This document shows, piece after piece, positions 2,157 through 39,594 of a stretch of 64,000 nt of DNA; the stretch's first letter is position 1; every line of letters begins with the position of its first letter. The DNA comes from an uncultured virus (IMG/VR IMGVR_UViG_3300008952_002242) (lineage: Duplodnaviria; Heunggongvirae; Uroviricota; Caudoviricetes): IMG/VR virus record IMGVR_UViG_3300008952_002242, positions 62,001 to 126,000 of that record, one strand, 5' to 3'. The translations under genes were made by a program, and so were the position numbers. A model generated the notes under the pieces. It was not told the origin of the DNA. It made no database searches and was given only the letters and a program-made list of their open reading frames with translations.

Positions 2157-2574
2157 CTATTTCAATATATAAAGTATCCATATAATGATGTCCATCATCA
2201 TCAGTATATCCACAATAAACCGCAACAGTATAGTCAATAAAATTTTCCCACGCAGCAAACATTACATGAGCATTTCCATTTTCATCTGTCATACTTGATG
2301 GATTAACTAAATTAACCCAATCATTTTCAATTCTATATTCATAATCAGATTGCCAAGAAAGATGTTGAGACCATCCACAATTAGTTGAAGCATCCAACAT
2401 CGTATAAGTTTGTGCTAAATCTGCATTAAACTCTAATTTATAACTCCCATCAGAATATGGTAATGTGCTTGAAATATTCAAATCACATTCACAATCTTCA
2501 ACAAATTCAGAATACATTGGGTTTTCTGAACAACCAATAACTAGCATTCCTACTATTAAAAATAACCTTTTCAT
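2143..2574 (-). CDS. Putative lipoprotein
   Basis: MKRLFLIVGMLVIG-C signal peptide with lipobox-like Cys; acidic mature domain. Confidence 0.6.
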   Translation of the reverse strand: MKRLFLIVGMLVIGCSENPMYSEFVEDCECDLNISSTLPYSDGSYKLEFNADLAQTYTMLDASTNCGWSQHLSWQSDYEYRIENDWVNLVNPSSMTDENGNAHVMFAAWENFIDYTVAVYCGYTDDDGHHYMDTLYIEIVDNE

Positions 2575-2672
2575 TTTATTTCCTTATATGTTCCTTTTTT
2601 AATTATTACAGCGTACCCCATAAAAAAATAGAAGTACAAAAATATCATTGTTAGTGTAACCATCATTTCCAT
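2571..2672 (-). CDS. Small hydrophobic peptide
   Basis: 3' part of the 2571..2753 ORF; ATG just after the promoter; one hydrophobic stretch. Confidence 0.35.
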   Translation of the reverse strand: MEMMVTLTMIFLYFYFFMGYAVIIKKGTYKEIK

Positions 2673-2677
2673 ACCTA

Positions 2678-2708
2678 AATATAACAAAGAAATGCAATAT
2701 AAGTCAAG
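2678..2708 (-). promoter_or_regulatory. sigma70-like promoter TTGACT-N18-TATATT
   Basis: Minus strand cTTGACTtatattgcatttctttgtTATATT. Confidence 0.6.
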
Positions 2709-2729
2709 CTTTATTTTCACTTTTTTAGT

Positions 2730-2772
2730 GGGCGGGTAAGTTTTGACACTCACGGCCTATAGCCTCCCGCCC
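2730..2772 (-). other. GC-rich branched RNA hairpin after the porin gene (terminator or structured element)
   Basis: GGGCGG/CCGCCC closing stem enclosing two small hairpins. Confidence 0.45.
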
Positions 2773-2784
2773 TATTATCCTTAC

Positions 2785-3561
2785 TTAAAAGGTATAACTT
2801 ACTCGTACTGAAACATCTCCATCTGCGGACAATTCTGAACGAATGTAAGAATTGCCATAATGATAACCGACACCATACATGGTTTCGGTTTCATCATCAA
2901 CAGATGAATATCCTATAAGGGCAGTGATACCTTTAGTAAAGGACGGCGAGATTACGGCTCTATACCATAAGTCCCCACTCGTTTCTTCACTAAGATCATA
3001 CTCAAAATAAGATGCAATTGAACCAAATGAATCATATGAAAATGTTCCACTTGCGTCCAATAGACGTGCTTCATCACTATTGATAGAAACCCCAGCAGTA
3101 TGACCAGCTAAACCATAAGATGTTCTCATGGAATATGATTGGTTATCGCCGTAAAATCCAGCAATACCTACACCTGCAAATTCGGTAGATGCTCCAAGTC
3201 CAACGGCATAAGCCTGAGAACTTGGTTCACTAACGAATGGATTACCTGATGGTCTGTGCCAAGGATTGGCAATACCAAAAGGAACCCTCTGTTGTCCAAG
3301 TGTAACGGAAGTAACTTTAGCATCTACATTGTAATATGCTTCTTCTACATTCACGCCACCTTCTGACAGATGCGATGTAAGTTTCCACCCTTCACCACTA
3401 TACGAAAGACCTGTATATGGTGTAGTGAAAGATACTGTATCACCAAAAGTAATATCAGTACTGAATTCACCACCCCAAGCAGGTGCTTGAGTTTCTTCTT
3501 GTGCGAAAGTAATTCCACCCAAAAAGAAGATAGTAGTTAGGATTGATTTTAGTGTATTCAT
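2785..3561 (-). CDS. Outer-membrane beta-barrel / porin-like protein
   Basis: Sec signal peptide (…GITFA-QE), alternating aromatic/Gly strands, C-terminal VRVSYTF with terminal Phe. Confidence 0.75.
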   Translation of the reverse strand: MNTLKSILTTIFFLGGITFAQEETQAPAWGGEFSTDITFGDTVSFTTPYTGLSYSGEGWKLTSHLSEGGVNVEEAYYNVDAKVTSVTLGQQRVPFGIANPWHRPSGNPFVSEPSSQAYAVGLGASTEFAGVGIAGFYGDNQSYSMRTSYGLAGHTAGVSINSDEARLLDASGTFSYDSFGSIASYFEYDLSEETSGDLWYRAVISPSFTKGITALIGYSSVDDETETMYGVGYHYGNSYIRSELSADGDVSVRVSYTF

Positions 3562-3571
3562 CGCGTCACTC

Positions 3572-3610
3572 CTATTGTGTTATAGATTCTTTTGAATAGG
3601 TAGAACCCAT
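3572..3610 (-). CDS. Possible 12-aa leader ORF (MGSTYSKESITQ) upstream of the porin
   Basis: Perfect AAGGAGG RBS 8 nt before the ATG; its TAG overlaps the porin RBS (TAGGAG). Confidence 0.35.
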   Translation of the reverse strand: MGSTYSKESITQ

Positions 3611-33852: not shown

Positions 33853-36387
33853 CTAAAAAAATCTTTCTACTGTATTTTGTTTATCTACGGGCATATCCCA
33901 CTTCAAAGCATCGTAAAACATTTTTATTTTCTTTGTTAATGCCCTATCAAATAATTTATCCCTATCTATATATTTAGATATAAAATCCATAATCTCATCT
34001 GGATCATCATACCCCTTATATGCAATAGTATCTAAATGAAATGGATTACTTTTTAAATATACCCATTTAATTTTACTATGATTTCTAATTGGTTCCAAAT
34101 GATTAGCATTAAAATGTCTCAATAAATCATTATAAGATACCGATGCTTTTACATGTACTGGAGCTCCAGATTTCATCTTTGTAAAGATATCACCTTTATT
34201 TGATTTATAAGAATACTTCTTAATCCCCTTTACACCACTTGGTAACGATATGTCAATAATTTCATTAGTATCTAACTTCTTCTTAAAACCTAATATGAAA
34301 TTATCAATCTTTTCCTTATCAATATCATGAAGAATAGCTTTCAATATATTTGTCATAAACTTCTGAAATGCTGGTGGGAAAGAACTTCTAACAATATCTA
34401 ATCCCTTTACATCAAGTTTCTCACATGTAGTACCACCATCATTGATAATCCATTGACCGTATCGTTTTTTAGTTACCCAAAAAGCACTCTTAGCAATAAC
34501 CTCTTGTTTAATGTCAAACCGATGTTCTTCCTTAATATTCAAAAATTTACTTGAAAAATAATCATAAGATTTATTAATATAATCTTGCACTTCACTAGCG
34601 ATATCCAAAATCTGTTTTGTCATAAACTTTACATCACCAAAATCAGCATCAGGAAATCTTTTGTTAATCAATGGAATAGCAGAATAAAAAACCGAATCTG
34701 TATCAGTATATATACAATAATCTTCATTTGTTTTTAAAATTTTATTATAATAATAATTAGCTATTTTCTCTGTAAATTGAATCAATGTAACACCAGTTGT
34801 AGTAGTAGCTTCAGCATTATCAATATCATAAAATCTAAATACTGGTAACCCCAATACACCATAAAAACTATTCAAAAGAATCTTTTGGACATATTGCCTT
34901 CTATCAAAATAATCATGTAATTCATTATTACCATCTTTACTATATTTCTTAACCAATCCTCTGTATTCAACTCTTTCATTAAACCACTTTTCAAGTATTG
35001 CTGGTATAACACCTTTTCTATCTAAATGATATAACACTCCATTAGAAGAAATTGATACCTTATTCTTATTTAAAAAATCTTTCAACTCACCAGTACTAAA
35101 TCTACGAATGACTTTCTTCCCCTTTTTTACTGTATAAGTTTTTTCATCCCCTCTCAAAAATTCTTCAGCATCCCAACCATTTAATCTTCCAATTTTTGTT
35201 TCAGGTGATATATTCAATGACATAATAACAGATGGATACATAGAAGTTAAATCCAAATCAAACACCCATTCATATTTACCAGGATTAGGATCCTTCACAT
35301 AAGCACCACTAAACCCAACGCGAGAATTATCATAACTCACATCATATCTTTTACTTGGAGCAACTAAGTTGAGACTTTTCAAATAGGTTAACATGGCACC
35401 TTCAATATATCGAGAACTAAAATATACTTCTTCATATGGTATTCTACCCATATGAGATACAGCTTTAGCCAAATCAATTAATTTTAACTTCTTCTCTAAT
35501 GCTACAATAATCTTAACATCAACTAAGTTATATTCAATAAACTTTTCAATGTTATTTTCTAACAATTGGTCTAATGTACCTTCATACTCAACCTTACCCA
35601 TACCAACTTCTATCTGACCTATATAATCCAATCGATAACTAGATCGACTTATAAAAGTAAATTTCTTATACAACTCCAAATAATCTAACGAACTAACACC
35701 AGCTATCCTATATCTCTTTTTATTCTGATTATAAACAACTTTACCTATTGGTGAAAGAGCATTAGCCATATCCATTCCCAAAAACTGAGTCATCCTATTA
35801 TATAGATAAGGAACATCAAATTTATCTATATTCCACCCCGTAATTATTGTTGGTTTTATTTCAACCCAATACTTCAACAATGCTTGTAATAATTCATACT
35901 CCGAATCAAAAATTCTTACATTGTTTTTTGAAATCGATAAATTTTTAGCTTCACTCCTGAAGTCTTGTGTGTTTCCTAATACATAAACTTTATATTCTTC
36001 ATCAATGTTATTATAAAGTGCGACAGAAGTAATTTTATTCTTTGCTTCCTCCGGCAGGGGAAATCCATCTGTAACTTCAACCTCAATATCAAAATATAAT
36101 TCAACATGATCTTTGGATGGTTCATCAGAATCAGGATATCTATCCATTAAAATGCGAGTATCCAATGGTATATCAGACTCAAAAACTTTACCGGTTTTAA
36201 AATCTTCTTCTGACCAATAATTTATTTTTTTTAACTTATCACCATAAATGGAGCGATATTGACCACCTCCATCTTTTACATAGGCATAATTCTTAAATAT
36301 AAAATTCTGATAACCAGCTACATCATCCCATAAGTGAACTTCAACTTGATTATTCGCTCTTTTCTCAGACCAAATATTCTGATACAT
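33853..36387 (-). CDS. DNA polymerase family B (gp43-like)
   Basis: FDIE exonuclease motif, DLTSMYPS, KILLNSFYG, YTDTDS and KKRY. Confidence 0.97.
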   Translation of the reverse strand: MYQNIWSEKRANNQVEVHLWDDVAGYQNFIFKNYAYVKDGGGQYRSIYGDKLKKINYWSEEDFKTGKVFESDIPLDTRILMDRYPDSDEPSKDHVELYFDIEVEVTDGFPLPEEAKNKITSVALYNNIDEEYKVYVLGNTQDFRSEAKNLSISKNNVRIFDSEYELLQALLKYWVEIKPTIITGWNIDKFDVPYLYNRMTQFLGMDMANALSPIGKVVYNQNKKRYRIAGVSSLDYLELYKKFTFISRSSYRLDYIGQIEVGMGKVEYEGTLDQLLENNIEKFIEYNLVDVKIIVALEKKLKLIDLAKAVSHMGRIPYEEVYFSSRYIEGAMLTYLKSLNLVAPSKRYDVSYDNSRVGFSGAYVKDPNPGKYEWVFDLDLTSMYPSVIMSLNISPETKIGRLNGWDAEEFLRGDEKTYTVKKGKKVIRRFSTGELKDFLNKNKVSISSNGVLYHLDRKGVIPAILEKWFNERVEYRGLVKKYSKDGNNELHDYFDRRQYVQKILLNSFYGVLGLPVFRFYDIDNAEATTTTGVTLIQFTEKIANYYYNKILKTNEDYCIYTDTDSVFYSAIPLINKRFPDADFGDVKFMTKQILDIASEVQDYINKSYDYFSSKFLNIKEEHRFDIKQEVIAKSAFWVTKKRYGQWIINDGGTTCEKLDVKGLDIVRSSFPPAFQKFMTNILKAILHDIDKEKIDNFILGFKKKLDTNEIIDISLPSGVKGIKKYSYKSNKGDIFTKMKSGAPVHVKASVSYNDLLRHFNANHLEPIRNHSKIKWVYLKSNPFHLDTIAYKGYDDPDEIMDFISKYIDRDKLFDRALTKKIKMFYDALKWDMPVDKQNTVERFF

Positions 36388-36419: not shown

Positions 36420-36450
36420 AATATAACAATAAAACCCTATATAAGTCAAG
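36420..36450 (-). promoter_or_regulatory. sigma70-like promoter TTGACT-N18-TATATT for the polymerase
   Basis: Minus strand cTTGACTtatatagggttttattgtTATATT. Confidence 0.6.
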
Positions 36451-36451
36451 A

Positions 36452-37609
36452 TTATTTTAATAAAGTAACTATAACTACCTCACCATAATTAACCAAAGCA
36501 TACATACCACTTGATAATTTACGAGTATCCCAAATATGATGCCCATTTAAATGATTATTATATACTTCTCTACCTAACATATCATATATCTGAACATGTC
36601 CATAACCAGTAATATTCATAACACTATTTGATGGATTAGGCCACACAAGTACTTTGGGTGCCTCTACCATAAATAATTCTTGTGTCAATTGTTTGAATTG
36701 AATTGGATCCAATATCTGTTGTAAGTATTGCATAGCTTGTTGCTGATTACCACCTAATATAATTTGAACCAAACCTATGACATCCAATACATTCAAATAA
36801 CCATCTTGTGTTATGTCTCCTGCTTCTTCTGCACAAATATATGTATCAGTTCCCAACAACATATCTACTAAAAACATCACATCTAAAATATCTATAGTAC
36901 CATTACCATCTACATTCCCACCTGTAAATACTAAATTGTCACATTGATCACACGCGTCACCCATACCATCCCCATCAGTATCTAGTTGGTCATAGTTCTG
37001 TATGTCTATGCAATTATCTATAGAATCCAGTATACCATCTTGGTCTAAATCTCTCGGTATATAAGATAATCCTAATTCTATAGCAGCCAATATAGCACCT
37101 TCAGAATATCCTGAAGCTGTATAGAGAACTTCGTAGTTATGATCTAATACTACATTATGTGGTATGTATCCATCTCCATAAAGTGTCCAAGCTTCACCAC
37201 CACTTGTACCACCATCTAATATTGGATAACTTATCCCAAATGCATCTGCCCATCCCTCACAACTATAGGTTGACCAATCAAATCCATTTGCAATTACATT
37301 AACATATGTTTCGTTTTCTGCGATAAATCCTTGCCAAATACTTTCTGTTTGCGGAGCCTCCGTTTGACAGGATGGTCACCAAGATGTAAATAGATTAATC
37401 CAAGTAACCTTATTAGCTCCTTCTTCATATAGGCTCCAATAACCATCTTCTGTGTTATCATTAACACAAACTGGTGCTTCGAAATCAGGTGAAATATCCC
37501 CGACCTCTAATTGTCCATATACTTTATTACCACATAATATTATTGCGGCTAATATCCAAATTACAACAGACCACCATTTAGGTGATAAGTCTCTTAATAG
37601 TGTTTTCAT
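36452..37609 (-). CDS. Putative secreted selenoprotein (385 aa): signal peptide, redoxin/TlpA-like domain with UxxC, TSP3 repeat, dockerin-like repeats, T9SS C-terminal sorting domain
   Basis: The two listed ORFs are in the same frame, and 37091..37375 is stop-free on manual translation. The only interruption is TGA at 37376-37378 in FTSW*PSCQTEAP, at the first Cys position of CxxC. Confidence 0.85.
37334..37375 (-). promoter_or_regulatory. Candidate bacterial SECIS element
   Basis: UGA-CCAUC-CUGU-CAAA-CGGA-GGC-UCCG-CAA-ACAG…UGG: hairpin whose G-containing apical loop lies 16-17 nt after the UGA. Confidence 0.65.
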
Positions 37610-39594
37610 ACTTGACCTCCGATTGGAATTTCACATACATCATTATTACAAAATTTATCTATTTCTGCTTCTTCACCTTCAACACCAACAAAACTCAAAT
37701 ATCCAAGTTTCTCAGTTTCAAAATGATATGTTTTTTCATCTATTGCTTCATATGGCATCTGTTTGTAAGCTCCACCATTTTTTCTTGGTAATAACGATAT
37801 ACCTTTTAATCTATATTGAAAATAATTTAATACATGTGGCAGTTCTTCAGCTTCTGTTTCAGGATTGAATGTTGCTGTACAACTAACTTGGTTATCTGCC
37901 CAATGTCGTTGTAAGAATGCAGCTAAACTGAATTGTTCCCAAATCGAAAGTTCAGCCGCAGTTCTTATACCCTCCCCCGCATCAACGGGCACATCTACTA
38001 CAACTGTGGAATCTTCTGAACCATATGCTGGTTCTACATTATATCCAGCTTTCTTTAATGGTTCTATTAACTCCGAATGTTTTGATAGTCTCATCCTACG
38101 GATATAAAATCTTGACTCTGGATAGTGCATTCCAGGAGTTGCTCCTACTAAGAGTGAAACCGTACCACTTGGTTTAACTGATGTTGTTTTAATTGACTTT
38201 GGTACTGCTAACCAATCACTATATTGTTTATCCCATTCTTGAATTGTATCATATCCATCTTCTAACCAATTTTTTAATTCTTCTAAACCATGTTTAGTAA
38301 CAAACTGTGCAACACCGCTTACTGAACATCCAATTCGTCTATTTCTTAACATAACTCTATTGGTTTCACTCCAATGAGTCTTTCCAAGTGTTACCGTTTT
38401 GGCATACAAATAAGCATATTTAAGTGTCCTTTTATAGTCCTCTAATGACTCATGGTTATTTGGAAAAGTTTCTACTAAACAACATAACTCATATGATTCA
38501 AGTGATTGTTCAAGACAAGGATTACCACCCGCGACTCTATGGTCTTTATTATCACCACCATTTTGCATACGAGAAAATTTTCTCATATTATCCAACCATG
38601 CAAATCCTGGTTCACCATTATCATTAATTCTCTTACAAACATCAGTATAATCCATACCGAGTTCTGCAAATATAGAATTATTTGAAGTCCAACCATATTG
38701 TTCCCTATGTGGGTTTACTTCATAATTTTTAAGATCTAAATACTCATCATCCTGTGGATCACCAAATACAATTTCTGCTGTCCTTCTTACATTACCTGCG
38801 ACAACACATTTACCAATTAGGTTCATTATATCAACAATGGTTGTTGTGGTTATAGGATTTTCTACATTTCTATTTAATACTTTTCTTATCTCTTCATGAA
38901 TTTCTTCTAAAGGTTCATGTCCACTTGATACACCACCGAAACCTTTGATTGGTGCGCCTGCTGGTCTAATCTTTGTGTAATCAAATTGAATTTCTGATGT
39001 TCCATGAAAATAACTCTCTAACAATAACTTTAATGATTCTACCCATCCTTCTCGTGTATCTGGTATCTCATATTCTTCTATACCTCTATTTGGATTAGGT
39101 AATTTAATCATAACCTCACCAGCACCTTTTGTATCGAAACCAACACCAACACCTAACATACTTGCATCCATTAAAAAACAGAATGGTTTTGAATAATCAT
39201 CCTTAATAGTTCCAGTTGATACAAATGCACAATTATTAAGTGCGGCATATAAACCTTTTTTCTCAGTAATTGGTGTTCCCATAGCCCAAAGACCTCGACC
39301 AGGCGGTAAGAACTTCATATTGAACATTCGGTCATACATTTCTTGAGCTGATGCTTGTGCTTGCCAAGGATTCCAACCCAATTGATGAGAATCTATCCAA
39401 TTTTTTTGCATTGAATATGTCCCTTCTACAACCCTCTTGATGGTTTCCCACCATCTTTCATTTTTACCATTTTTTTTAACACGAGAATAAGTTCTCATAT
39501 AGACCAATTCACCCAGACCATTAAATCCGAATGGTGGTTTTTTTCTTTTGTATTTGGAAACAAAATTTTCCGATAATGTAAATTTTTTACTCAT
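37606..39594 (-). CDS. nrdJ: Class II (adenosylcobalamin-dependent) ribonucleotide reductase, monomeric RTPR type
   Basis: PPGRGLW, ALNNC, GNVRRTA, NPCLEQ, ELCCLVE, KPSGT and C-terminal FCNNDVC. Confidence 0.95.
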   Translation of the reverse strand: MSKKFTLSENFVSKYKRKKPPFGFNGLGELVYMRTYSRVKKNGKNERWWETIKRVVEGTYSMQKNWIDSHQLGWNPWQAQASAQEMYDRMFNMKFLPPGRGLWAMGTPITEKKGLYAALNNCAFVSTGTIKDDYSKPFCFLMDASMLGVGVGFDTKGAGEVMIKLPNPNRGIEEYEIPDTREGWVESLKLLLESYFHGTSEIQFDYTKIRPAGAPIKGFGGVSSGHEPLEEIHEEIRKVLNRNVENPITTTTIVDIMNLIGKCVVAGNVRRTAEIVFGDPQDDEYLDLKNYEVNPHREQYGWTSNNSIFAELGMDYTDVCKRINDNGEPGFAWLDNMRKFSRMQNGGDNKDHRVAGGNPCLEQSLESYELCCLVETFPNNHESLEDYKRTLKYAYLYAKTVTLGKTHWSETNRVMLRNRRIGCSVSGVAQFVTKHGLEELKNWLEDGYDTIQEWDKQYSDWLAVPKSIKTTSVKPSGTVSLLVGATPGMHYPESRFYIRRMRLSKHSELIEPLKKAGYNVEPAYGSEDSTVVVDVPVDAGEGIRTAAELSIWEQFSLAAFLQRHWADNQVSCTATFNPETEAEELPHVLNYFQYRLKGISLLPRKNGGAYKQMPYEAIDEKTYHFETEKLGYLSFVGVEGEEAEIDKFCNNDVCEIPIGGQV

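What the first reader, a model, noticed from the sequence alone, without database searches (positions are those of the whole stretch)
36452..37609. Hidden phage-encoded selenoprotein: UGA read-through joins two ORFs into a UxxC redoxin
Seen: the 77-aa ORF ends at TGA 37376-37378 and the same frame stays open for 95 more codons into the 212-aa ORF. The joined sequence reads …SPDFEAPVC…TWINLFTSW-*-PSCQTEAPQTESIW…NVIANGFD…ISYPILD…IPHNVVLD…, a complete thioredoxin-like TlpA/redoxin fold with the stop exactly at the nucleophilic first Cys of WCxxC. Established: UxxC in thioredoxin folds is the most typical selenoprotein signature. Inference: the phage makes a 385-aa selenoenzyme using host SelA/SelB/tRNA-Sec (none seen in this window). 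Phage selenoproteins are rarely described, and gene callers split this one.
Basis: partly seen in the sequence, partly recalled or inferred. Interest (0 to 1): 0.92.

Follow-up and report, generated by a model that had tools for sequence, protein, structure and literature searches.

The report
Phage gene encoding a selenocysteine redoxin
A large marine phage carries a gene for a secreted thiol-redox enzyme whose internal "stop" codon is almost certainly read as selenocysteine by the host's machinery; the enzyme family is already known from ocean bacteria, but carriage by a phage appears not to have been reported.

Summary
A minus-strand frame (37609..36452) is open for 385 codons except for one TGA (37378..37376), inside W-U-P-S-C.

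The selenocysteine reading is strongly supported.
- TGA sits at this site in all 52 motif-bearing homolog frames, phage and Marinimicrobia.
- Two distant cellular homologs have Cys there.
- A hairpin 12-26 nt after the UGA is conserved, with compensatory changes. It uses rare codons and is absent from the Cys forms.
- dN/dS is well below 1 on both sides of the TGA.
- TGA is an ordinary stop elsewhere in the phage.

The 131-kb phage record has no selA, selB, selD or tRNA-Sec. Two Marinimicrobia genomes with the closest cellular copies have all four, so host machinery is inferred.

The product is a ResA/TlpA-type redoxin. It has a signal peptide, thrombospondin-3 and dockerin-like calcium repeats, and a T9SS sorting tail.

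The protein family was already listed as a selenoprotein family in 2008 (GOS Prx-like 1 and 3). Only the phage carriage seems new. The gene is a mosaic: host-like catalytic head, phage-like tail.

This scan reached the same reading before on other DNA (e1-5736073, e1-6107824, e1-3581071).

The parts
36452..37609 (-). Whole gene: 385 codons (one of them UGA = Sec) plus the TAA stop at 36452-36454
   Evidence: frame. (Pfam AhpC-TSA 36-160, Por_Secre_tail 322-372). (313 database homologs at E<=0.001).
37616..37620 (-). GGAGG Shine-Dalgarno-like motif 6 nt before the ATG. The ATG overlaps the TGA stop of the upstream RNR gene (ATGA at 37606-37609).
   Evidence: Read directly; ORF ends. No promoter-like site lies directly upstream, so co-transcription with the RNR gene is inferred.
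37511..37609 (-). N-terminal signal peptide or anchor (residues 1-33: basic start, hydrophobic stretch 12-25, then ..YGQ)
   Evidence: By inspection. The AF2 model has a lone helix at 10-25. Homologs have equivalent leaders ending in GQ/AQ. No signal-peptide predictor was run.
37061..37510 (-). ResA/TlpA-type thioredoxin-fold redoxin domain (residues 34-183)
   Evidence: Pfam. AF2 block pLDDT of about 78-96. Foldseek to ResA, DsbE and CcmG, TM 0.74-0.82 on the target. phmmer to StoA and ResA.
37376..37378 (-). In-frame TGA = predicted selenocysteine codon (residue 78)
   Evidence: TGA at the aligned site in 52 of 52 homolog frames. Cys there in L263 and L268. Aligns with the first Cys of WCPPC (3erw) and WCKPC (4nmu).
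37367..37378 (-). U-P-S-C redox motif (U78, C81), just before helix 79-97
   Evidence: (U78 and C81 invariant in 40 rows).
37345..37370 (-). Predicted bSECIS element, numbered with the U of UGA as nt 1. Lower stem is nt 9-12 with 31-34. Upper stem is nt 17-20 with 24-27. Apical loop is GGC at nt 21-23. The family core hairpin is nt 15-29 (37350-37364).
   Evidence: MFE -6.7 kcal/mol with this structure. (covariation; 90.7% of cells paired against 21.5-42.6% when slid; 0 of 500 shuffles as high). (GGAGGCTCC in 44 of 45 distinct Sec forms, absent from both Cys forms).
36935..37057 (-). Thrombospondin type-3 calcium-binding repeats (residues about 185-225)
   Evidence: Pfam TSP_3. The profile matches COMP and thrombospondin-2 repeats, E 1e-38. 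NCBIfam NF045500 and MtsC give partial matches.
36740..36934 (-). Dockerin-like (EF-hand pair) helical region (residues about 226-290)
   Evidence: Pfam Dockerin_1 is weak (E 0.026). The same family is precomputed for many homologs. AF2 helices at 241-285.
36455..36646 (-). T9SS type-A C-terminal sorting domain (residues 322-385)
   Evidence: Pfam PF18962, 32.9 bits against cut-off 27. TIGR04183, 29 bits against 23. AF2 beta-sandwich 321-383, pLDDT 83-95. It is the only such domain in the 131-kb record.
37606..39594 (-). Upstream neighbour: B12-dependent (class II) ribonucleotide reductase, ending in an ordinary TGA stop
33853..36387 (-). Downstream neighbour: family B DNA polymerase

Best explanation
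The two ORFs are one phage gene for a 385-residue selenoprotein.

Decoding (inferred). In an infected cell the host's SelB, loaded with Sec-tRNA(Sec), binds a small hairpin whose GGC loop begins 17 nt after the UGA. This delivers selenocysteine at codon 78, so translation continues.

Product (by homology). It is a ResA/TlpA-type thiol-disulfide oxidoreductase with a U-P-S-C redox centre, the ResA-type Glu (E84) and the cis-Pro (P150). A signal peptide precedes the catalytic domain. Thrombospondin-3 and dockerin-like calcium-binding repeats and a T9SS C-terminal sorting domain follow it.

Location and role (inferred). The protein most likely leaves the cytoplasm by the Sec translocon and is handed to the type IX system, ending on or outside the outer membrane. 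There it reduces disulfides or oxidised thiols, or possibly peroxides.

Origin (inferred). The gene was taken from the host lineage, most likely Marinimicrobia/SAR406. It serves as an auxiliary gene that keeps or adds an envelope redox activity during infection. The benefit to the phage is unknown.

Shown here: the TGA, its conservation, the Sec/Cys pair, the hairpin with covariation, the fold and domains, the phage context, and the presence of Sec machinery in related cellular genomes. Inferred: actual Sec insertion, the export route, the substrate and the host identity.
For: 1. TGA is conserved. It is present in 16 of 16 viral-contig homologs at 42-100% identity, in 24 of 24 motif hits, and in 52 of 52 after 30 cellular loci were added. 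The 26 best matches in 301 genomes of the phylum of G001 all hold an in-frame TGA.

2. There is a Sec/Cys pair. L263 and L268 read W-C-G-P-C at the site, and solved ResA and StoA structures have Cys there.

3. A hairpin follows the UGA. GGAGGCTCC occurs at nt 18-26 in 44 of 45 distinct sequences. Pairs 15-29, 16-28 and 17-27 change on both sides: 33 cells against 11.8 +/- 2.4 in shuffles, 0 of 500 shuffles as high. 90.7% of cells are paired, against 21.5-42.6% when the partner is slid. The 22-row test agrees. The stem uses codons that are uncommon in this phage: GAG is 25.9% of Glu codons and CCG 6.5% of Pro codons. The Cys forms keep E-A-P/T but with other codons and no hairpin. The recognised Omp28-related selenoprotein genes beside cellular homologs carry a like-sized hairpin with a G-first triloop at a similar distance.

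4. dN/dS is 0.045-0.25 upstream and 0.10-0.40 downstream of the TGA in 9 phage pairs.

5. TGA is a normal stop. It ends 18 of 59 long frames, including the RNR gene 230 nt upstream. In-frame stop junctions are not enriched for TGA (3 of 18). The record holds no suppressor-type tRNA.

6. The phage lacks selD, selB, selA and tRNA-Sec. G001 and G002, which hold cellular homologs, have selA and selB adjacent to each other, a selD that itself holds a TGA, and, in G002, a tRNA-Sec at 63.9 bits.

7. Fold and domains are supported.

8. The context is phage. Neighbours are PolB, RNR, DnaB, RecA and a tail sheath. The locus is identical in a second viral record. Other viral loci place the gene among HNH, PhoH, Hsp20, peptide deformylase and endolysin genes.

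9. SprA, the T9SS translocon, is present in 5 of 5 Marinimicrobia genomes tested.
Against: - No direct evidence exists for selenium insertion or for the full-length protein.
- The hairpin is thermodynamically modest. It folds at -6.7 kcal/mol with z -1.36 (14 of 200 shuffles fold as well). The 76-nt context gives z -0.91.
- In this phage the upper stem has only 4 pairs, because pairs 15-29 and 16-28 are mismatched.
- No Rfam family matched, but bacterial SECIS elements are poorly covered there.
- The host is not identified. The phage record is about 70% complete, so sel genes could lie in the missing part.
- G001's best tRNA-Sec match is below the cut-off (38.4 bits).
- GldM was not found in 5 Marinimicrobia genomes, though the control was silent too.
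- Four viral copies (L007, L013, L015, L016) lack the T9SS tail, so surface display is not universal.
- E-A-P is conserved as protein in ResA relatives too, so part of the nucleotide conservation is due to the protein.
Confidence: 0.85

Rival explanations
1. The gene is a pseudogene or an artefact. The TGA is a recent nonsense mutation or a sequencing or assembly error in a Cys-redoxin gene.
For: Gene callers split the gene. Most database homologs are truncated forms of 277-295 aa.
Against: The same TGA is in 52 of 52 homolog frames down to about 40% identity. The gene is identical in an independent viral record. dN/dS is below 0.41 on both sides. No TGT or TGC occurs in any close homolog.
Confidence: 0.01
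2. The phage or its host reads every TGA as an amino acid (code 4, Trp, or code 25, Gly), so the residue is Trp or Gly rather than Sec.
For: 15 of 15 full-length database proteins that I aligned have W at the site, and 5 of them run past the usual C-terminus with a W. They were evidently called under a TGA=W code.
Against: TGA ends 18 of 59 long frames in the window, including conserved genes such as RNR. In-frame TGA junctions are not enriched (3 of 18). The only tRNAs in the record are two tRNA-Gly(TCC). For P0108 the W corresponds to a TGA in L014. Trp or Gly in place of the nucleophilic Cys of CxxC would leave the redox centre without its nucleophile. The hairpin with covariation would have no purpose.
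Confidence: 0.03
3. The TGA terminates translation. The phage makes a 77-residue secreted peptide, and the downstream part is made separately by re-initiation or not at all.
For: Sec insertion competes with RF2 termination (abstract of PMC4513850, seen in the listing). Some truncated product is therefore expected in any case.
Against: The TGA splits a single thioredoxin fold, and Pfam and the AF2 model span it. The first start codon after the TGA is 95 codons downstream, inside the fold. The downstream part has no signal peptide of its own but carries a T9SS tail that needs one. Both parts are conserved in one frame.
Confidence: 0.05
4. The UGA is read through without Sec. A near-cognate tRNA inserts Cys or Trp, for example in a host without Sec machinery or at low selenium, and the hairpin merely slows the ribosome.
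For: The host is unknown and the phage has no Sec genes. The hairpin is weak.
Against: The cellular homologs with the same hairpin sit in genomes with full Sec machinery. The family was predicted as selenoproteins independently. Cys codons would be the simpler route to Cys, and they do occur in the distant homologs.
Confidence: 0.05

Closest known systems
GOS marine 'Prx-like 1' and 'Prx-like 3' UxxC selenoproteins (Zhang and Gladyshev 2008, PMC2398784)
   Same: Same protein family. The paper's supplementary file 3 holds 'SWUPSC' 19 times and 'TWUGPC' 7 times. The 'SWUPSC' passages shown lie in the part of the file headed Prx-like 1, the 'TWUGPC' passages in the part headed Prx-like 3. The reads shown there resemble the window's redoxin domain by eye. 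The Pfam families (PF00578, PF08534) and the UxxC motif are the same.
   Different: Those are unassigned metagenome reads treated as microbial. No phage origin, T9SS tail or mosaic structure is described. I saw passages and supplement hits, not the whole paper.
ResA / StoA / TlpA / CcmG (DsbE) extracytoplasmic thiol-disulfide oxidoreductases
   Same: Same fold, with TM 0.74-0.82 on the target. W-C-x-x-C aligns at the start of helix 1, followed by the conserved Glu and the cis-Pro. Both have an N-terminal signal or anchor.
   Different: Sec replaces the first Cys. This protein adds TSP3, dockerin-like and T9SS modules and two further invariant cysteines (C48, C117). It is probably located at the outer surface rather than on the outer face of the cytoplasmic membrane, and the substrate is unknown. 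It is not linked to cytochrome c maturation genes here.
NCBIfam NF045500 'Omp28-related selenoprotein'
   Same: It shares the TSP3/dockerin-like C-terminal module (model positions 255-376). It lies next to the cellular redoxin homologs in L081 and L160. It has a UxxC motif and a similar small hairpin after the UGA.
   Different: Its N-terminal catalytic part is unrelated. The score is 99.9 bits against a cut-off of 200, so this protein is not a member.
Selenoproteins of eukaryotic viruses (glutathione peroxidase of molluscum contagiosum and fowlpox viruses; recalled, and mentioned in the abstract of PMC8310308 only in general terms)
   Same: A virus carries a host-derived redox selenoprotein gene and depends on host Sec machinery.
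   Different: Those use eukaryotic 3'-UTR SECIS elements in animal viruses. Here a phage gene carries a bacterial in-ORF hairpin.
tRNA-Sec genes reported in huge phages (PMC10747093; passages seen)
   Same: It links phages with selenocysteine decoding.
   Different: That paper reports tRNA genes and only speculates about selenoproteins. Here the selenoprotein gene is present and no tRNA-Sec is found.

Membership tests
Bacterial selenoprotein gene (UGA-Sec with in-ORF bSECIS) | In-frame UGA conserved among homologs | tested here: met
   52 of 52 motif-bearing frames in 55 loci. 16 of 16 viral loci.
Bacterial selenoprotein gene (UGA-Sec with in-ORF bSECIS) | Cys-containing homologs align Cys with the UGA (Sec/Cys pair) | tested here: met
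   L263 and L268 read WCGPC. ResA and StoA have Cys aligned there.
Bacterial selenoprotein gene (UGA-Sec with in-ORF bSECIS) | Stem-loop just downstream of the UGA with G in the apical loop (the distance and loop rules of bSECISearch are recalled, not looked up) | tested here: met
   The GGC loop begins 17 nt after the UGA. Covariation in 3 of 6 pairs, 0 of 500 shuffles as high. The single-sequence energy is unremarkable.
Bacterial selenoprotein gene (UGA-Sec with in-ORF bSECIS) | selA, selB, selC and selD available in the translating cell | tested here: inconclusive
   Absent from the phage record. Present in two Marinimicrobia genomes that hold homologs. The actual host is not identified.
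Bacterial selenoprotein gene (UGA-Sec with in-ORF bSECIS) | Selenium found in the protein | not testable with these tools
   Needs 75Se labelling or mass spectrometry.
ResA/TlpA/StoA/CcmG-type redoxin (Pfam PF00578 / PF08534) | Thioredoxin fold with CxxC at the N-terminus of helix 1 | tested here: met
   PF00578 at 29.5 bits, cut-off 26; PF08534 at 24.1 bits, below its cut-off of 26.6. U78 precedes helix 79-97. Foldseek E 5e-9, TM 0.74-0.82.
ResA/TlpA/StoA/CcmG-type redoxin (Pfam PF00578 / PF08534) | Conserved Glu after the CxxC (ResA Glu80) and cis-Pro | tested here: met
   E84 and P150 are invariant in 40 rows and align with E and P of 3erw and 4nmu. The role of Glu80 is recalled; the entry title 'ResA E80Q' appears.
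T9SS cargo with type-A C-terminal domain | C-terminal domain match over the curated cut-off, plus an N-terminal signal peptide | tested here: met
   PF18962 at 32.9 bits against 27. TIGR04183 at 29 against 23. The signal peptide was judged by inspection only.
T9SS cargo with type-A C-terminal domain | The host has a type IX secretion system | tested here: inconclusive
   SprA is over the cut-off in 5 of 5 Marinimicrobia genomes. GldM was found in 0 of 5, with a silent control. The host is not identified.
NF045500 Omp28-related selenoprotein | Full-length match over the cut-off (200 bits) | tested here: not met
   99.9 bits, covering only model positions 255-376 of 377.
GOS Prx-like 1 / Prx-like 3 selenoproteins | PF00578 or PF08534 homology with a UxxC motif, and likeness to the listed reads | tested here: met
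   Motif strings found in supplementary file 3. The 'SWUPSC' passages lie in the part headed Prx-like 1 and the 'TWUGPC' passages in the part headed Prx-like 3. No formal alignment to those reads was made.

The most novel reading that the evidence does not exclude
Marine phages of SAR406/Marinimicrobia carry, exchange and remodel selenoprotein genes. That would make this family the first described bacteriophage selenoproteins and the first auxiliary genes whose expression depends on the host's UGA-recoding machinery and selenium supply.

The phage copy joins a recently host-derived catalytic head to a phage-lineage display tail. This suggests that the phage re-arms a surface-displayed redox enzyme to match its current host. 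The purpose could be to protect the infected cell's envelope from oxidants, to block superinfection, or to time lysis: the gene sits directly after the endolysin gene in two phage lineages.
Probability: 0.45. Interest if true: 0.85.

Novelty: new variant of a known kind. Interest (0 to 1): 0.72.

Why it matters
If the reading is right, selenocysteine decoding is a host service that phages exploit. Selenoprotein genes would then move between marine bacteria and their viruses.

That adds selenium to the trace elements that phage auxiliary genes depend on. It also gives a sequence-based clue to the host of an uncultured phage group, because only Sec-competent cells can express the gene.

It exposes a systematic annotation error as well. 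Most of the several hundred database homologs are truncated after the TGA, and every full-length one that I aligned carries a false Trp at the active site.

The enzyme itself is a known kind, so the biochemical surprise is modest.

Tried and rejected
- Rfam scan of the window: no family at gathering score. This is uninformative for bacterial SECIS elements.
- Single-sequence folding: z -0.91 and z -1.36. Not significant alone, so I relied on covariation.
- Sliding-window synonymous-site conservation: strong codon bias gives 0.59 identity overall, so the SECIS region (0.66-0.76) does not stand out. I dropped it in favour of the rare-codon and Cys-form controls.
- Public runs: contigs only.
  - X4 matches exactly but comes from the same study as the likely source.
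  - An RNA-library contig (X20) covers 37330-37413 with 11 of 84 letters different. It comes from a relative and does not show transcription of this phage.
  - No difference at 37376-37378 is among the 40 rows shown, but 125 rows are not shown.
- Number of host-to-phage transfers.
  - The AU test rejects the 14 IMG/VR rows as one clade (p 6e-58). It is confounded by rows of unknown origin that sit among them, such as L162, which is nearly identical to L010.
  - Holding the window with the 18-row clade is not rejected (p 0.178). The number is therefore unresolved, and the mosaic structure explains the conflict.
- Synteny: only L001 shares the PolB and RNR neighbours, so there is no conserved position across phage lineages.
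- GldM search in Marinimicrobia: 0 of 5, with a silent control. No conclusion can be drawn.
- Promoter and terminator scan: fewer promoter-like sites than in shuffles. Nothing usable.
- L259 gave no motif-bearing frame and was left unresolved.
- Literature searches for a phage selenoprotein found none in the held library. [quoted passage not shown] Subscription journals are not covered.
Full report
**Observation**

On the minus strand, an ATG at 37609 opens a frame. A GGAGG lies 6 nt before it, and the ATG overlaps the TGA stop of the upstream ribonucleotide reductase gene. The frame runs 77 codons to a TGA at 37378..37376 and then a further 307 codons to a TAA at 36454..36452.

**What the protein is**

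- Pfam AhpC-TSA matches residues 36-160, across the TGA, above its curated cut-off. Por_Secre_tail (the T9SS sorting domain) matches 322-372. TSP_3 and Dockerin_1 give weaker hits between them.
- NCBIfam adds ResA, StoA and DsbE partial matches. It also gives a partial match (99.9 bits, cut-off 200) to the C-terminal third of NF045500 'Omp28-related selenoprotein'.
- An AlphaFold2 model built on a 40-row alignment has mean pLDDT 80.5. Block means are about 78-96 over the redoxin domain (34-183) and 83-95 over the C-terminal beta-sandwich. Residue 78 sits immediately before helix 79-97.
- Foldseek finds ResA, a DsbE-like protein, CcmG and related thiol-disulfide oxidoreductases: E about 5e-9, TM 0.74-0.82 on the target.
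- In phmmer alignments the TGA position aligns with the first Cys of WCPPC in StoA (3erw) and WCKPC in ResA (4nmu). The following Glu and the cis-Pro also align.
- The middle module matches the calcium-binding type-3 repeats of COMP and thrombospondin.
- U78, C81, E84, A85, P86 and P150 are invariant in the 40 rows, as are two extra cysteines, C48 and C117.

**Is the TGA a sense codon?**

*Conservation.*
- Of 80 loci returned from viral contigs, 16 cover the redoxin domain at 42-100% identity, and all 16 have TGA at the site.
- With genome and metagenome loci added, 24 of 24 motif hits have TGA.
- A search of 301 genomes of the phylum of G001 found matches at E <= 1e-20 in 69. G001 is the genome labelled as a Candidatus Marinimicrobia MAG. 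The 26 best matches all contain an in-frame TGA.
- After those loci were fetched, 52 of 52 motif-bearing frames in 55 loci had TGA.
- Four loci gave no motif hit. L163 was a pattern miss whose TGA is seen. L259 is unresolved. L263 and L268 are Cys forms.

*Sec/Cys pair.* L263 and L268 (39% and 32% identical) read W-C-G-P-C.

*Selection.* In nine pairs of phage copies, dN/dS is 0.045-0.25 for the 45 codons upstream (two pairs saturated) and 0.10-0.40 downstream.

*No general recoding.*
- TGA ends 18 of 59 long frames in the window.
- Stop codons flanked by 70 or more open codons on both sides number 11 TAA, 4 TAG and 3 TGA in the whole record.
- The record's only tRNAs are two tRNA-Gly(TCC).
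- The 15 full-length database homologs that I aligned all show W at the site, and five of them run past the family's usual C-terminus with a W. About 22 such rows were among the 120 listed. For P0108 the W corresponds to a TGA in L014. These are gene calls made under a TGA=Trp code, not real tryptophans.

**The recoding signal**

The 45 nt from the UGA onward align without gaps. GGAGGCTCC occupies nt 18-26 in 44 of 45 distinct sequences. The exception, L008, has a different hairpin at the same place.

The stem is nt 15-20 with 24-29 around a GGC loop:
- 90.7% of cells are paired, against 21.5-42.6% when the 3' partner is slid.
- 33 cells change on both sides, against 11.8 +/- 2.4 in shuffles.
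- 0 of 500 shuffles reach the observed paired fraction, covariation score or double-change count. The earlier 22-row test, which included a lower stem, agrees.
- Pair 17-27 takes C-G, U-A, U-G and A-U. Its 3' member is the synonymous third base of a Pro codon.

The stem is written in codons that this phage otherwise avoids. GAG is 25.9% of 1255 Glu codons, and CCG is 6.5% of 674 Pro codons. The two Cys forms keep the residues E-A-P/T but use other codons and form no such hairpin.

The Omp28-related selenoprotein genes next to cellular homologs have a comparable five-pair hairpin with a GUU loop at a similar distance from their UGA.

Against this, the hairpin is small:
- In the window it has four upper pairs plus a four-pair lower stem.
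- It folds at -6.7 kcal/mol with z -1.36; the wider context gives z -0.91.
- Rfam reports nothing.

**Machinery**

- The 131-kb record is about 70% complete. It has no selD, selB or selA and no tRNA-Sec.
- None of 15 related viral records has a tRNA-Sec above the cut-off, and none of 14 has selD. All of these records are fragments.
- G001 and G002 have selA and selB adjacent to each other, and a selD that itself contains a TGA. G002 also has a tRNA-Sec at 63.9 bits, while G001's best match is sub-threshold.
- Use of host machinery is therefore an inference. Marinimicrobia as host is inferred from gene likeness, the shared hairpin and the T9SS tail.

**Phage context and origin**

- The neighbours are PolB, class II RNR, DnaB, a 5'-3' exonuclease, RecA and, further on, a tail sheath protein.
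- A second viral record has the same locus.
- Other viral records place the gene among HNH endonucleases, PhoH, Hsp20, peptide deformylase and polynucleotide kinase. In L008 and L014 it lies directly after an endolysin gene.
- A tree rooted on the Cys forms places the phage copies inside the cellular diversity. The number of transfers is unresolved.
- The reason is that the gene is a mosaic:

| Segment (residues) | Identity to closest cellular copies | Identity to best phage copy (L002) |
|---|---|---|
| Redoxin head (34-180) | 73-76% | 65% |
| Repeat region (181-290) | 53-58% | 69% |
| Tail (291-385) | 9-32% | 79% |

**Export**

The T9SS tail is the only one in the record. SprA is present in 5 of 5 Marinimicrobia genomes tested. 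GldM was not found, but the control was silent. Four viral copies (L007, L013, L015, L016) lack the tail.

**What is known**

- The 2008 Global Ocean Sampling selenoproteome (PMC2398784; passages and supplement searched) lists Prx-like 1 and Prx-like 3 UxxC families.
- Its supplementary file 3 contains 'SWUPSC' 19 times and 'TWUGPC' 7 times, in the parts of the file headed Prx-like 1 and Prx-like 3. The reads shown there resemble this protein by eye. The protein family is therefore not new.
- PMC10747093 (passages) reports tRNA-Sec genes in huge phages and only speculates about selenoproteins.
- Five full-text searches found no description of a phage selenoprotein. Subscription journals are outside the library.
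- This scan has reached the same reading on other DNA, including a near-identical sequence (e1-5736073). I treated those notes as leads only.

**Verdict**

This is a real phage-borne gene for a UxxC ResA-type selenoprotein, copied from and still exchanging with a Marinimicrobia-type host. It is read through at UGA by host SelB via a small conserved hairpin (confidence about 0.85). The enzyme class is known; carriage and remodelling by phages is the new element. Selenium insertion, export route, substrate and host remain to be shown.

Noticed in passing
window 36452-37609, compared with L002 and L081/L159/L240-L242: The gene is a mosaic. The redoxin head (residues 34-180) is 73-76% identical to cellular Marinimicrobia copies but 65% to the best phage copy. 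The repeat region and T9SS tail are 69% and 79% identical to phage L002 but 53-58% and 9-32% to cellular copies.
   Followed up: partly
window 36425 / 37624: One contig of run X5, from a different study, joins 36425 to 37624 and so skips the whole redoxin gene. A related phage may have PolB next to RNR without it. Only 43 letters lie on the shorter side, so this is a weak hint.
   Followed up: no
database proteins P0002, P0006, P0010, P0046, P0108 and others: Public protein collections hold this family either truncated after the TGA (277-295 aa) or full-length with a false Trp at the Sec site. Some of the full-length forms also read through a terminal TGA. They were evidently called under a TGA=Trp code.
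   Followed up: partly
L081 2221-3600; L160 580-1900; L168; L170: Omp28-related selenoprotein genes (G-L-L/N-U-P-Y-C) lie just upstream of the cellular redoxin homologs. Each has a CGCGA-GUU-UCGCG hairpin about 15-27 nt after its UGA. L168 and L170 hold two such genes each.
   Followed up: partly
L167 1279-3093: One metagenome contig carries two more distant UxxC redoxins in tandem (S-W-U-G-P-C and S-W-U-P-S-C). Their post-UGA hairpins differ in sequence but lie at a similar distance.
   Followed up: no
L163 1156-1560: An ORF shares the leader and first mature residues of the redoxin (..GQTYTVGDT) and then continues into a CxxC segment that looks like a metal-binding domain. It is followed by a complete redoxin gene with its TGA at 1707. 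This may be reuse of the leader module.
   Followed up: no
L008 3510-3983 and L014 3517-3990: In two viral lineages an endolysin gene (phrog_315, E 4e-51 and 2e-48) ends within about 30 nt of the start of the redoxin gene.
   Followed up: no
L007, L013, L015, L016: Four viral copies replace the T9SS tail with a short, unrelated C-terminus that ends at a TGA.
   Followed up: no
G000 C1 34254-34326 and 52695-52766 (outside the window): The phage record's only tRNA genes are two tRNA-Gly(TCC).
   Followed up: no
G001 C103 11649-12575; G002 C34 25008-25934: The selD genes of both Marinimicrobia genomes contain one in-frame TGA, so SelD is itself probably a selenoprotein there.
   Followed up: no
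window 37320-37421: In the runs laid, summed contig depth peaks over the 100 nt around the Sec codon and hairpin (X8 2377-3588, X5 162-176). This fits unusually high nucleotide conservation there among many relatives, though contig depth is a poor measure.
   Followed up: no
window residues C48 and C117 (37466-37468; 37259-37261): Two further cysteines are invariant in all 40 aligned homologs. They could form a structural disulfide or a second redox pair. Their distance in the model was not measured.
   Followed up: no
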